From the human T2T-CHM13v2.0 reference genome, Homo sapiens, in NCBI RefSeq assembly GCF_009914755.1, contig NC_060925.1: a DNA stretch of 64,000 nt; one strand, given 5' to 3'. Position numbers and translations under genes: made by a program. How positions within the stretch are numbered: position 1 is the stretch's first letter; each line of letters begins with the position of its first letter. This document shows, piece by piece, positions 13,623 to 17,457 of the stretch. The notes beneath the pieces were generated by a model. That model was not told where the DNA came from. It searched no databases and saw only the letters and a list, made by a program, of their open reading frames with translations.

Positions 13623-14296
13623 TTTAATTTAATAGTAGCCTTTCTGACTGGTGTGAGATGGTATCTCATTTTGGTTTTCATTTGCATTTCCCTAATACTT
13701 ACTGATATTGAGCTTTTCTTCATATACTTGTTGGCTGTGTGTATGTCTTCTTTTGAGAAATGTCTGTTCATGCCCTTTGCTCATTTTTTTAATGGGGTTG
13801 GTTCTGCTTGTTAATTTGTTTGAGTTGCTTATAGATTCTGGATATTAGACATTTGTCAGATGCATAGTTTGTAAATATCTTCTCCCATTCTATAGGTTGT
13901 CTGTTTTCTCTGTTGACACTTCCCAATTTTAGAGGTTTTTTCATAATTGCTTTTGTCTTCATCATGACGTCTCTGCCTGAGCTGATGTCCAGAATGGTAT
14001 TTCCTAGATTTTCTTCTAAGGTATTTATAGTGAGAGGTTTTACATTTAAATCTTTAATCCATCTTGAGTTGATTTTTGTATACAGTGAAAGGTAGGAGTT
14101 CCCTTTCAATCCTGCATATGGCTTAGTCAGTTATCCCAGCAGCATTTATTGAATAGGGTGTCCTTTCCCCATTGCTTTTTTTTGTCACCTTTGTTGAAAA
14201 TCAGATGGTTGTAGGTGTGCAGCTTTATTTCTGGGTTCTCTCACCTGTTCCATTGCTTTATGTGTCTGGTTTTGTTCCAATACCATGCTGTTTTGA
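13525..14296 (-). mobile_element. Older L1PA (PA13-16-like) ORF2 3' fragment with internal deletion
   Basis: ORFs 13532-13771 and 13789-14109 translate as L1 ORF2 ([10 protein letters not shown]..., [13 protein letters not shown]...). Confidence 0.9.
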
Positions 14297-14584: not shown

Positions 14585-17090
14585 AGATGAGGTTGCAGTG
14601 TACAAAACCAATAGACAAAAATAAGTAGCATTTTTATACATAAATAATGACCTAACTGTAAAATAAATCAAGAAAACAGTCCTATTAACAATAGCTTAAA
14701 AAAAACCCTAGGAATAAATTTAACCAAGGAAGTGAAATACCTGCACACTGAAAACTATAAAACATTGATGAAAGACATAGAAGAAGAAATATATAAATGG
14801 AAAGATATCCCTTGCCAATGTATCAAAAAATTAGTGTTGTTAAAATGTCAATACTATGCAAAATATCTGCAGATTCAATGGAATACCCATCAAAATCCCA
14901 ATGGCATTTATAACAGAAATAGAAAAAAATCCTAAAATTTGCATAGAACCGTAAAAGACTCCAAGTAGCCAAAACAATTCCAAGAAGAAAGAAAAGGTTG
15001 GAGGCATCACACTTACTGATTTAAAATTATATTACAAAGACATAGTATTCAAAACAGTATTTTACTGGCACAAAATAGAAACAGTCCAGTGGAAAAGAAT
15101 GAAGAGTCAAGAAACAAATCTAAACCTAGATAGTTAACTAATTATTGAGAAAGGCACAAAAAGGATATAAAGTGAACGAAACTGTACTCTTATATCATGC
15201 ACAAATATCAATTCAAAACGGATAAAAGACCCAAACATAAAACCAAAAACTATAACATTCATAAAAGAGAATGCATGGGAAAAACTTCTGGGCATTGGCC
15301 ATGGAAGTGATATTTAAAAAAAAAAATACCAAAATCTCAGGCCACAAAAGCAAAAATAAATAAATAGAATTACAAAAACTAAAAATCTTCTGCATAGTAA
15401 AGGAAACAATCAACAAAATGAAACAGAGGTATGGATTGGGAAAAGCTATTTATAAACAATATATCTGATAAGGGGTTAATATTCAAAATTTATGAAGAAC
15501 TCATACAATTCAATAGTGAAAAAAATCACCCAATTAAAAAATGAGCAAATTTCCCGAACAGACATTTCTCCGAATAAGACGTAAATATGGCCAAAAGATA
15601 TATGAAAAAGTGCTCATCATTAATCATGACGGAAATACTAATCAAAACTACTATGAGATACCACCTCAACCCCATTAGAATGGCCACTAACAAAATGTTA
15701 TAAGAGCCCTAGGGTTTAAAACTGTCTCAGGGAGGCTCTGCTTTGTTTTCTGTTACAGATTCTGACTTCCTCCTCTGGATCCTTGCAGCAGTTAGTTTGG
15801 GATTTTTTTTTCTATAGCTTCCTCCTCACAGCTGTTTCTTTGAGCAAAATGGTGACTGTGGTGCTGATGGTGCACCATGTCTGATGGGAATACCTTCAGT
15901 GGTATCAACCGGCGAAATGATGGTGTTGACTGTAGTGTTCTTGAGACGAAGCAATAAATGAAGAGGAGGAAGGACAGTGGTAAAGAACACACTAGAACCA
16001 TAGGCATTGGCCTTTAAGGTTTTAGAATGACTGATATTTTAGATGAGTTTATTTGACATTGAATGTCCATGGGCTTCTGAGCAGGGTTTCAGTTTGATTA
16101 ACAGTTGCAACAACATGGGGCAGCTGTTTTGCTCTTTATCTTCAACTGTACTTCAGATAATAACCCTGAAGCACAAGATAAGGTTGGGCAGAATGCTGCT
16201 AGAGAGGACAACCTGGATGGTCTTTATTCTCTTCAATTGTCCCTCTACATCATCTGGAAGTCATCTCTTGGTGTCACTCTTGCACTTTCTTTGTCCATGC
16301 TATAGCTGCTCACACCTAGTGAGTGTGTGGAGAAGAGGGAATACGTATACTCTTGGGGTGGGAATGTAGACTGGTATAGCCATTATGAAAAACACTATGG
16401 AATGTTCTAAAAATAAACAAGCAAACATAGAACCACCATATGATGCAGAAATCTCACTTTGAGGCATATACCCACCCTACTCCCCAAAATGAAATCACCA
16501 TCTCATAAAGATAACTGCATTAACATGTTCATTCCAGCATAATTCACAATAGCCTAGAGAGGGAAGCAACCTAGGCGTCTGTGGATAGATGAATGGGTAA
16601 AGAATGTGTAAAAGAAAGAGATCTTGCCATTTGTCACAAGATGGATGAACCCAGAGGACATTATGCTAAGGGAAATAAGCCAAACACTGAGGGAAAAATA
16701 GAGCATGATATCACTTATATGTGGAGTCTTAAAAAATTCAAATATACAAAGAGAATGAAACAGCAGTTACCAGAGGTTGGGAGAAGGACAGAGGGGAGAA
16801 AATAAAATGGAGAGGTGTATCTCAGAGGATACAAAGTAGCAGATGTGTAGAATGAACAAGTCTAGAGATGTAATGTACAATATGCGGACCAGAGGTAATA
16901 AAATTTCACTGTATGTGGAATTCATACTAATTTAATAGAGGTTTTGCTGTCATTGCTACAAAAGCAAATACAAAAAATGGGTAATTGTGTGACATAATGG
17001 ATATATTAACTTGCTTTAGTATAGTAAGCTTATTACTATCTATATGTATCCCATAATATCCTGTTGTATACCTTAAATATACACAATTTG
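14585..17090 (+). mobile_element. L1MA6/7-like 3' ~1.9 kb (ORF2 C-terminus and 3'UTR), interrupted by the CTLA4-derived insert
   Basis: ORF 14732 (YLHTENYKTLMKDIEE..KWKDIPC) is ORF2; 3'UTR ggatacaaagtagcagatgtgtagaatgaacaagtctagag; L1 breaks at ~15699 and resumes at ~16318. Confidence 0.88.
15700..16317 (+). pseudogene. CTLA4: Unprocessed CTLA4 gene fragment: intron 2 end, exon 3 (transmembrane, 15759-15851), intron 3 start
   Basis: 15758-15851 reads [31 protein letters not shown] vs CTLA4 [31 protein letters not shown]. Preceded by the acceptor ctgctttgttttctgttacag and followed by gtgactgtggtgctgatggtgcaccatgtctgatggg (CTLA4 intron 3 as remembered). Carries a 1-nt frameshift and an 18-nt deletion. 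A displaced copy, not the functional locus. Confidence 0.92.
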
Positions 17091-17112
17091 TCTTTTTAAA
17101 ATGTTCAGGTTA

Positions 17113-17457
<345 letters not shown>

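What the first reader, a model, noticed from the sequence alone, without database searches (positions are those of the whole stretch)
15700..16317. Orphan copy of the CTLA4 transmembrane exon with both flanking introns, captured inside an old L1
Seen: a ~620-bp non-repeat, GC-richer block splits an L1MA at ...ctaacaaaatgtt | insert | agtgagtgtgtggagaag..., with no poly(A) and no TSD. It encodes [31 protein letters not shown] between an AG acceptor and a GT donor. The ORF track misses it. Established: this is the CTLA4 exon 3 transmembrane peptide, and the flanks match CTLA4 introns 2 and 3 as I remember them. Inference: retained introns, no tail and no TSD argue against a classical processed pseudogene and favour a templated insertion patching a germline double-strand break, from genomic DNA or nascent pre-mRNA. 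It must be younger than the host L1MA. I do not know of an annotated CTLA4 pseudogene fragment, but cannot confirm that it is undescribed.
Basis: partly seen in the sequence, partly recalled or inferred. Interest (0 to 1): 0.9.

Follow-up and report, generated by a model that had tools for sequence, protein, structure and literature searches.

The report
Old stray copy of CTLA4 exon 3
A 616-base unspliced piece of the immune gene CTLA4 (its membrane-anchor exon with parts of both neighbouring introns) was pasted into an old LINE-1 repeat inside a NEGR1 intron tens of millions of years ago, most likely as a patch over a broken chromosome; it is a decayed, apparently functionless example of a kind of insertion that is already described.

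Summary
Window 15703-16318 (+) is a collinear copy of chr2:204353208-204353845 and matches nowhere else in the assembly. BLASTN gives 549 of 642 aligned columns identical. The chr2 locus is the real CTLA4: its exon 2 matches solved CTLA-4 chains at E 3e-74.

The copy holds the last 56 nt of intron 2, a 93-nt remnant of the 110-nt exon 3, and about 465 nt of intron 3. The exon remnant has lost 18 nt and has a +1 frameshift.

It splits an L1 ORF2 remnant of the same orientation. There is no target-site duplication and no poly(A). About 12 bp of L1 are missing at the site. CTLA4 exons 2 and 4 are not in the window.

Donor-copy divergence is K2P 0.105. At the rate used in PMC2671141 this means roughly 42-53 Myr. 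The host L1 is about 2.2-2.7 times older.

The best reading is a templated insertion made during double-strand-break repair. Whether the template was DNA or pre-mRNA cannot be decided here. The kind is known (class 2 templated sequence insertions; "distant" repair-mediated duplications). A published pipeline would have caught this locus. Interest is low to moderate.

The parts
14699..15702 (+). Host L1, left part (ORF2 remnant, sense on +). The left limit is a minimum.
   Evidence: Window 14699-14863 matches LINE-1 ORF2p aa 766-820 (E 2.5e-10). Window 15578-15691 matches aa 1084-1122 (E 7e-9). The 223-nt left flank had 3355 first-look candidates in the genome; 40 were scored, and the 39 non-self hits were 75-81% identical.
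15703..15758 (+). Copy of the last 56 nt of CTLA4 intron 2, ending in the acceptor AG
   Evidence: Aligns to L002 1501-1556 with 2 mismatches. Sub-part coordinates were checked. AGA at 15703-15705 is shared by the donor and by L1 relatives, so it may be a 3-nt junction microhomology.
15759..15851 (+). Remnant of CTLA4 exon 3 (transmembrane segment): 93 of 110 nt, with an 18-nt 5' deletion and a +1 T frameshift
   Evidence: Exon 3 is L002 1557-1666, 110 nt. Exon columns give K2P 0.045 over 92 sites. A six-frame protein search of the genome finds the peptide only at chr2 (E 9.4e-17) and here, in two frames (E 0.045 and 6.35). Two further rows at E 3.7 and 5.5 are not significant.
15852..16318 (+). 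Copy of the first ~470-480 nt of CTLA4 intron 3, beginning with the GT donor. The last four bases, CCTA (16315-16318), are assigned to the donor only by allowing a 5-nt deletion.
   Evidence: The BLASTN alignment runs to 16314 = L002 2138. The donor continues TGACACCTA. All intron columns together (both pieces) give K2P 0.116 over 516 sites.
16319..16795 (+). Host L1, right part (ORF2 C-terminal remnant and onward, sense on +). The right limit is a minimum.
   Evidence: Right-flank HSPs to L1 copies are collinear with the left-flank HSPs. In 16 of 29 loci the two HSPs lie within 60 bp of each other in the same orientation. Protein-level identification failed for the two right-flank ORFs tried.

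Best explanation
This is a fossil of chromosome-break repair. It is not a gene, and it is not a retrocopy made by target-primed reverse transcription.

Proposed order of events:
1. An L1 (ORF2 3' part, sense on +) was already sitting in a NEGR1 intron.
2. Roughly 40-55 million years ago, the DNA broke inside that L1, at about ORF2 codon 1123-1130, in the germline or early embryo.
3. About 12 bp (range 8-14) were lost from the ends.
4. The gap was bridged by a copy of roughly 640-650 nt of CTLA4, covering the end of intron 2, exon 3 and the start of intron 3. The CTLA4 locus on chromosome 2 stayed intact.
5. Joining was by end-joining or synthesis-dependent strand annealing, possibly using a 3-nt AGA microhomology at the left junction.
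6. The copy then decayed neutrally. It lost 18 nt at the exon 5' end, gained a +1 frameshift, acquired five further indels, and accumulated about 10% substitutions against the donor.

The copy lies antisense to NEGR1, and I assign it no function.

Shown: the identity and extent of the copy, its uniqueness, the intact donor, the absence of TSD and tail, the collinearity of the L1 across the site, and the age order.

Inferred: the break itself, the germline timing, the exact bases lost, and the absolute date.

Not resolved: the template. My estimate is about 55% chromosomal DNA (a copied or captured fragment) and about 45% cDNA of nascent unspliced CTLA4 RNA.
For: - Unique collinear donor at the true CTLA4 locus (two places in the genome; 549 of 642 columns identical; exon 2 of that locus matches PDB CTLA-4 at E 3e-74; exons 2, 3 and 4 are all present at chr2).
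- Only this piece of CTLA4 is in the window (one HSP for 3,638 nt of CTLA4 against 64 kb).
- Both intron parts are retained, so the source was not a spliced mRNA.
- No TSD, no A tract at the 3' end, and the only AATAAA lies mid-insert at 15953.
- A control for what target-primed reverse transcription (TPRT) leaves lies 800 bp away: an Alu-like element with an A-rich tail and a perfect 16-bp direct repeat.
- Of the 16 L1 copies that span the site, 15 carry about 20 nt between the homologues of window 15696 and 16319, where the window has about 6-8. That is a loss of about 12 bp with no duplication.
- Age order: insert-donor K2P is 0.105 overall, 0.092 at non-CpG sites and 0.116 in intron columns, which is 0.046-0.058 per branch. 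The star-tree branch of the host L1 is 0.125 against 29 relatives.
- These features match the published definition of class 2 templated sequence insertions (no TSD, no poly(A) signal or tract, with microdeletion, microhomology or filler; PMC5110952).
- They also match interchromosomal TE-interrupting duplicons without a poly(A/T) tail (12 of 29 sampled; deletions 1-15 nt, microhomology 2-9 nt; PMC2671141).
Against: - No empty orthologous site could be examined, so the pre-insertion L1 sequence is inferred from paralogous L1 copies that are only 75-81% identical.
- The left junction has a second possible alignment: an 18-bp L1 deletion just upstream, then L1 running to ...AATGTT, a 3-nt filler ATA, and almost no target loss. 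Under that reading the donor's upstream AATGTTGG would be a longer microhomology that was later damaged. The two alignments differ in detail but not in kind.
- The L1 age rests on a star-tree assumption, and subfamily structure inflates it.
- The right flank is identified as L1 only at DNA level. Its ORFs gave no Pfam or PDB hit.
- In the published sample, most interchromosomal duplicons (17 of 29) were retrotranspositions, so the prior for this class is not overwhelming.
- The absolute date depends on an assumed substitution rate.
Confidence: 0.83

Rival explanations
1. Replication-based template switching (MMBIR/FoSTeS type). A collapsed fork in the NEGR1 intron primed on chromosome 2 by microhomology, copied about 650 nt, and switched back.
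For: The donor is intact. Microhomology at the left junction is possible, either AGA or the longer AATGTTGG-like match. There is a small loss at the site.
Against: It is a single simple insertion from another chromosome, with no other rearrangement in the 64 kb. Nothing in the sequence separates this from break repair by SDSA or end-joining. It is a variant of the same outcome, not a different prediction.
Confidence: 0.07
2. L1 ORF2p acted in trans on an unspliced CTLA4 RNA fragment by ordinary target-primed reverse transcription (class 1 templated insertion). The tail and TSD were later erased.
For: The insert lies in sense orientation inside a transcription unit. The L1 target just left of the site is A-rich. 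In the published sample, 17 of 29 interchromosomal duplicons had poly(A/T) tails (PMC2671141).
Against: There is no A run longer than 1 in the last 60 nt. There is no poly(A) signal near the 3' end. No repeat longer than 5 nt links the junction zones, and 1696 of 2000 shuffles reach that length. Target bases are lost, not duplicated. At about 5% decay per copy, a 7-20-bp TSD should still be visible. A nearby Alu-like element keeps a perfect 16-bp TSD.
Confidence: 0.05
3. The CTLA4 piece entered together with the L1. The L1 reverse transcriptase switched from L1 RNA to CTLA4 pre-mRNA and back (a chimeric L1 insertion).
For: The CTLA4 piece and the L1 have the same orientation. Template switching by ORF2p is documented for U6/L1 and mRNA/L1 chimeras (PMC13174262, passages).
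Against: The L1 branch (0.125) is 2.2-2.7 times the insert branch (0.046-0.058). Known chimeras carry the foreign RNA at the 5' end of a truncated L1. Here at least 1 kb of collinear L1 continues upstream. A return switch to within about 12 nt of the departure point would be needed. Neither CTLA4 nor NEGR1 occurs in that paper's text or in its 4 held supplementary files.
Confidence: 0.03
4. Assembly artefact, or part of a larger segmental duplication of the CTLA4 region.
For: None was found.
Against: There is 14% divergence with seven indels against the chr2 copy. Only 612-616 nt are shared. Exons 2 and 4 and the rest of 3.6 kb of CTLA4 have no match in the window. The L1 continues collinearly on both sides.
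Confidence: 0.02

Closest known systems
Class 2 templated sequence insertions (Onozawa & Aplan; review PMC5110952; main text parts 1-3 read)
   Same: A copy of a distant unique genomic sequence inserted with no TSD, no poly(A) signal or tract, and a microdeletion with possible microhomology at the junctions. The donor is left intact. Intronic sequence is a listed template type.
   Different: Those are described as polymorphisms, or as events induced in cell lines with inserts of 73-414 bp (median 191). This one is about 616 bp now and about 640-650 at origin. By its divergence it is tens of millions of years old and presumably fixed. Their evidence favours an RNA template, which cannot be tested here.
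Repair-mediated duplications found as unique DNA interrupting a transposable element (Pace, Sen, Batzer & Feschotte 2009, PMC2671141; abstract, passages and sections 7, 8, 21 read)
   Same: The anatomy used by their pipeline is the same: a TE split by at least 50 bp, halves adjacent in the TE, and a single donor elsewhere. Their set has 254 of 1,136 human duplicons with donors on another chromosome. Distant duplications have a mean of 302 bp and a maximum of 3,424 bp. Breakpoints show deletions of 1-15 nt and microhomology of 2-9 nt. They also report two complete exons duplicated with intron on both sides.
   Different: Their confident set is the 824 proximal (<5 kb) duplications. They did not classify the distant ones as a group, because 17 of 29 sampled had poly(A/T) tails.
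NUMT insertion at natural chromosome breaks by NHEJ (Hazkani-Covo & Covo 2008, PMC2567098; abstract only)
   Same: Filler DNA sealed into a germline break, with microhomology or nucleotide additions and small or no deletions.
   Different: There the source is mitochondrial DNA. Here it is a nuclear gene segment.
Processed pseudogene / retrocopy
   Same: A gene fragment at an ectopic site.
   Different: Here both introns are retained and there is no tail or TSD.
L1 chimeric insertions with other RNAs (Law & Burns 2026, PMC13174262; abstract and passages)
   Same: Foreign transcribed sequence joined to L1 in sense orientation.
   Different: In those chimeras the partner sits at the L1 5' end, arrives with the L1, and the whole is flanked by TSDs. 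Here the piece is internal and younger than the L1.

Membership tests
Class 2 templated sequence insertion / distant repair-mediated duplication | The insert is a copy of a unique sequence from a distant locus, and the donor stays intact | tested here: met
   Two places in the genome. The donor locus still has exons 2, 3 and 4 in order and is CTLA4.
Class 2 templated sequence insertion / distant repair-mediated duplication | No target-site duplication of 5 bp or more at the junctions | tested here: met
   The only shared words between the junction zones are three 5-mers, none of them placed as a TSD; 1696 of 2000 shuffles do as well. L1 relatives show a loss, not a duplication.
Class 2 templated sequence insertion / distant repair-mediated duplication | No poly(A) tract, and no poly(A) signal 10-30 nt upstream of the insert end | tested here: met
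   The longest A run in the last 60 nt is 1. The only AATAAA is at 15953, 365 nt from the end.
Class 2 templated sequence insertion / distant repair-mediated duplication | End-joining signatures: microdeletion, microhomology or filler | tested here: inconclusive
   A microdeletion of about 12 bp (8-14) is inferred from 15 of 16 paralogous L1 copies. Either a 3-nt AGA microhomology or, under the alternative alignment, a 3-nt filler is possible. An empty orthologous site is needed to settle this.
Class 2 templated sequence insertion / distant repair-mediated duplication | Template is reverse-transcribed RNA (as proposed for class 2 events) | not testable with these tools
   The fragment lies wholly within the CTLA4 transcription unit and is unspliced. 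That fits either nascent RNA or DNA.
Pace et al. pipeline criteria for TE-interrupting duplicons (PMC2671141, section 21) | Two TE segments of the same name and orientation, at least 50 bp apart, with consensus positions within +/-30 bp; one donor only; reciprocal best hit | tested here: met
   Same orientation, with the halves adjacent to within about 12 bp as judged on 16 L1 copies. The gap is 616 bp. There is a single donor. RepeatMasker names and consensus coordinates themselves were not available.
Processed pseudogene (TPRT retrocopy) | Introns removed | tested here: not met
   56 nt of intron 2 and about 465 nt of intron 3 are present.
Processed pseudogene (TPRT retrocopy) | Poly(A) tail and flanking TSD | tested here: not met
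L1 chimeric insertion by template switching or RNA ligation | The partner RNA is joined at the 5' end of the L1 segment and arrives at the same time | tested here: not met
   The piece is internal, with at least 1 kb of L1 upstream. The L1 branch is 0.125 and the insert branch 0.046-0.058.
Segmental duplication | Duplicated block larger than 1 kb (size as stated in PMC2671141; the usual 90% identity threshold is recalled) | tested here: not met
   612-616 nt at 86% identity. Nothing else of 3.6 kb of CTLA4 is in the window.
LINE-1 (host element) | Encodes ORF2p-like sequence and is highly repeated in the genome | tested here: met
   ORF2p aa 766-820 and 1084-1122. 3355 first-look candidates for the left flank. 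The subfamily L1MA was not tested because no repeat library was on hand.

The most novel reading that the evidence does not exclude
The patch was reverse-transcribed from nascent, unspliced CTLA4 pre-mRNA and used to seal a germline or early-embryo break. If so, this is a roughly 45-million-year-old fixed fossil of RNA-templated break repair. It would also imply that a T-cell-restricted gene was transcribed in the germline of an ancestral anthropoid. More broadly, it shows an intact exon with both splice sites being dropped into another gene's intron without any transposon machinery. That is the intermediate that exon shuffling requires. Here it failed because the piece is antisense to NEGR1 and the exon is 110 nt, which is not a multiple of three.
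Probability: 0.35. Interest if true: 0.45.

Novelty: new member of a known kind. Interest (0 to 1): 0.3.

Why it matters
Its importance is modest.

(1) It is a clean, datable example of break repair by a templated patch from another chromosome. The host L1 serves as a built-in ruler for what was lost at the break.

(2) It shows that a whole exon with both splice sites can be moved into an intron of an unrelated gene without retrotransposition. That is relevant to how exon shuffling starts, although this copy is dead and in the wrong orientation.

(3) Practical point: the copy shares six exact runs of 20 nt or more with CTLA4 intron 2, exon 3 and intron 3 (41, 37, 34, 32, 26 and 25 nt). Primers, probes or guide RNAs designed on CTLA4 exon 3 can therefore have a perfect second target in the NEGR1 intron on chromosome 1.

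I found no named CTLA4 pseudogene in print. One search returned only false matches to a probe name and residue labels. One search returned one unrelated paper. The RefSeq table supplied with the finding lists nothing here.

Tried and rejected
- Pfam scan of ten ORFs from the flanks and the insert: 0 families. The L1 identity was obtained instead from solved ORF2p structures.
- The two right-flank ORFs (16306-16410 and 16593-16805) gave no ORF2p match in the PDB sequences. The right flank is therefore tied to L1 only through DNA collinearity with other copies.
- Rfam gathering scan of the whole window: no match.
- Two primary papers on templated insertions (PMC4419790, PMC4040595) are not held. 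I used the authors' review instead.
- The supplement list of PMC2671141 could not be opened. Whether this locus is already in their Table S1 stays open.
- I considered that the insert's 5' end might mark the intron 2 branch point, which would indicate a cDNA stopped at a lariat. I rejected this. The copy starts 56 nt upstream of the acceptor, further than the 18-40 nt where branch points usually lie (recalled), and no good branch-site motif sits at the start.
- I considered an L1 twin-priming inversion to explain the minus-strand L1 at 13789-14130. I rejected it because its ORF2p range (947-1063) overlaps the range covered by the + strand L1 (766-1122).
- No primate or other mammalian genome is reachable with these tools, so the empty-site test and phylogenetic dating could not be done.
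Full report
**What is there.** Window 15703-16318 stands out from its A-rich surroundings. Its GC content is 0.429, against 0.298 for the 600 bp to the left and 0.387 for the 600 bp to the right. A 641-nt query across it found two places in the 3.1-Gb assembly. One is the query itself. The other is G000:C2:204353208-204353845, same strand, E 1.4e-210 (2 of 2 candidates scored). BLASTN aligns window 15703-16314 to that locus with 549 of 642 columns identical, 59 mismatches and 7 gaps covering 34 columns.

**The chr2 locus is the functional CTLA4.**
- The ORF 390 nt upstream of the matching block equals solved CTLA-4 ectodomain chains at E 3e-74.
- The block contains ...[37 protein letters not shown] followed by GT.
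- [34 protein letters not shown] follows about 1.2 kb further on.
- Exon 3 is 110 nt, at L002 1557-1666.

**Anatomy of the chr1 copy**.
- 56 nt of intron 2 (15703-15758).
- 93 nt of exon 3 (15759-15851).
- 463-467 nt of intron 3 (15852-16314, or to 16318).
- The exon remnant lacks 18 nt at its 5' end, a deletion between two CAGAT repeats. That is why the acceptor AG now abuts ATTCTGAC.
- The exon remnant has one extra T in a T run.
- The GT donor is kept.
- A six-frame search with the 36-residue exon peptide found only chr2 (E 9.4e-17) and this copy in its two frames (E 0.045 and 6.35). Two further rows at E 3.7 and 5.5 are not significant.
- When 3,638 nt of CTLA4 (exons 2-4) were compared with the whole 64-kb window, only this one HSP appeared. 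Exons 2 and 4 are not nearby.

**The host.**
- The left flank translates to LINE-1 ORF2p. Window 14699-14863 matches residues 766-820 (E 2.5e-10). Window 15578-15691 matches residues 1084-1122 (E 7e-9).
- The 223 nt left of the insert had 3355 first-look candidates in the genome. Of 40 scored, the 39 non-self matches were 75-81% identical.
- I compared 29 of these loci with both flanks. In 16, a left-flank HSP reaching the junction and a right-flank HSP starting at the junction lie within 60 bp of each other in the same orientation. The other 13 of 29 were left out of the junction alignment because one HSP stopped short.
- In the alignment, 15 of the 16 carry about 20 nt between the homologues of window 15696 and 16319. 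The window has only about 6-8 L1-like bases there. The sixteenth, L011, has a deletion of its own.
- The L1 is therefore one element, collinear across the insert, and has lost about 12 bp (8-14, depending on how junction bases are assigned).
- The two right-flank ORFs I tried gave no ORF2p or Pfam hit. The right side is identified as L1 only at the DNA level.
- The subfamily name L1MA could not be checked.

**Junctions.**
- Left: the window reads ...GTTATA-AGA-GCCC. L1 relatives read ...GTCAAA-AGA-TAAC. The donor reads ...GGAGT-AGA-GCCC. The three bases AGA (15703-15705) could belong to either parent, so this is a possible microhomology.
- Left, alternative alignment: the L1 runs to ...ACAAAATGTT, with an 18-bp deletion of its own just upstream and ATA as filler. 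In that reading the donor's upstream AATGTTGG resembles the L1's AATGTTGG. That would be a longer microhomology, later damaged. I regard the first alignment as more parsimonious because it needs one event. I cannot exclude the second without an empty orthologous site.
- Right: the BLASTN match ends at 16314. The next four bases, CCTA, match the donor five bases further on, so a 5-nt deletion probably hides the true end at 16318. The L1 then resumes at GTGAG.
- There is no target-site duplication. The longest word shared by the two 60-nt junction zones is 5 nt, and 1696 of 2000 shuffles reach that.
- There is no A tract at the 3' end. The only AATAAA lies 365 nt from the end.
- As an internal control, an Alu-like element 800 bp downstream keeps an A-rich tail and a perfect 16-bp direct repeat.

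**Age.**
- Kimura two-parameter distance between copy and donor is 0.105 over 608 sites (37 transitions, 22 transversions). It is 0.092 without CpG-involved columns, 0.116 in intron columns, and 0.045 in the 92 exon columns, where the donor is under selection.
- PMC2671141 relates donor-acceptor divergence to time at 2.2e-9 per year (section 8). By that convention these values give about 42-53 million years. This points to an event near the base of the anthropoid primates. It is an inference from an assumed rate, not a phylogenetic date.
- For the host L1, I avoided building any consensus. I estimated its private branch as the mean distance to 29 relatives (0.259) minus half the mean distance among them (0.268). 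This gives 0.125. The relatives' own branches have a median of 0.127.
- That is 2.2-2.7 times the per-branch value of the insert (0.046-0.058). Subfamily structure inflates the L1 figure, but not by enough to reverse the order. The insert arrived long after the L1.

**Mechanism.**
- An unspliced gene fragment is not the product of ordinary target-primed reverse transcription when it has no tail and no TSD, shows a small target loss, leaves the donor intact, and is younger than its host.
- It fits the published description of class 2 templated sequence insertions. These have no TSD and no poly(A) signal or tract, and they show microdeletion, microhomology or non-templated bases. They are interpreted as patches at double-strand breaks in the germline or early embryo, and intronic sequences are among the templates (PMC5110952).
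- It also fits the anatomy used by Pace et al. to find repair-mediated duplications: a TE split by at least 50 bp of unique DNA with a single donor (PMC2671141, section 21).
- That study reports 1,136 such duplicons in the human genome, 254 of them with the donor on another chromosome. Distant duplicons average 302 bp, with a maximum of 3,424 bp.
- In a sample of 29 interchromosomal cases, 12 lacked a poly(A/T) tail and showed deletions (1-15 nt), microhomology (2-9 nt) or filler.
- Two complete exons with intron on both sides were among their donors.
- This locus meets those criteria as far as I could test them. I could not see their supplementary table.

**RNA or DNA template.** This cannot be decided from the sequence.
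- For RNA: the piece lies entirely inside a transcription unit, and the reviewed experiments favour RNA. Reverse-transcriptase inhibitors cut such insertions more than three-fold.
- For DNA: both introns are retained. CTLA4 is, from general knowledge, largely restricted to T cells and so is an unlikely germline transcript. Synthesis-dependent strand annealing from an ectopic chromosome is an established route.
- My estimate is about 55:45 for DNA.

**Function and prior description.**
- NEGR1 lies on the minus strand and the window holds none of its exons (table supplied with the finding). The piece is therefore antisense to the host gene and intronic.
- It is broken as a coding exon, and no RefSeq feature covers it. 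I assign it no function.

**Is it described?**
- I found no CTLA4 pseudogene in the searchable literature. One search returned two papers, and both matches were artefacts of a methylation-probe name and residue labels.
- One search returned one unrelated paper.
- CTLA4 and NEGR1 are absent from the text of the 2026 L1-chimera catalogue and from its 4 held supplementary files.
- The kind of event is well described, so I rate it a new member of a known kind.

**Practical note.** The copy shares six exact runs of 20 nt or more with CTLA4, the longest being 41 and 37 nt. This is relevant to primer and guide design on CTLA4 exon 3.

Noticed in passing
window 17097-17431: An Alu-like GC-rich element (about 17113-17416, + strand) with an A-rich tail, flanked by a perfect 16-bp direct repeat at 17097-17112 and 17416-17431. 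This is a textbook target-primed insertion lying in or just past the 3' end of the host L1. It serves as a local contrast to the tail-less, TSD-less CTLA4 piece. The name Alu is from recognition of the sequence, not from a tool. Rfam gave no hit in the window.
   Followed up: partly
window 13789-14130 (- strand): A second, better preserved L1 ORF2 fragment in the opposite orientation, matching ORF2p residues 947-1063 at E 2e-26. Its ORF2 range overlaps that of the + strand host L1, so it is a separate insertion and not the inverted half of a twin-primed element.
   Followed up: partly
window 15714-15888, 16112-16137 and 16185-16209: Six exact runs of 20 nt or more shared with the CTLA4 locus (41, 37, 34, 32, 26 and 25 nt). 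These are potential perfect off-target sites for oligonucleotides or guide RNAs designed on CTLA4 intron 2, exon 3 or intron 3.
   Followed up: partly
L002 3487-3609 (chr2, downstream of the CTLA4 exon 4 coding part): A dinucleotide (AT)n-type repeat shows up as a YIYIYI... reading in the frame translations of the CTLA4 3' region. It is presumably the known 3'UTR microsatellite (recalled). It is not part of the copied segment.
   Followed up: no
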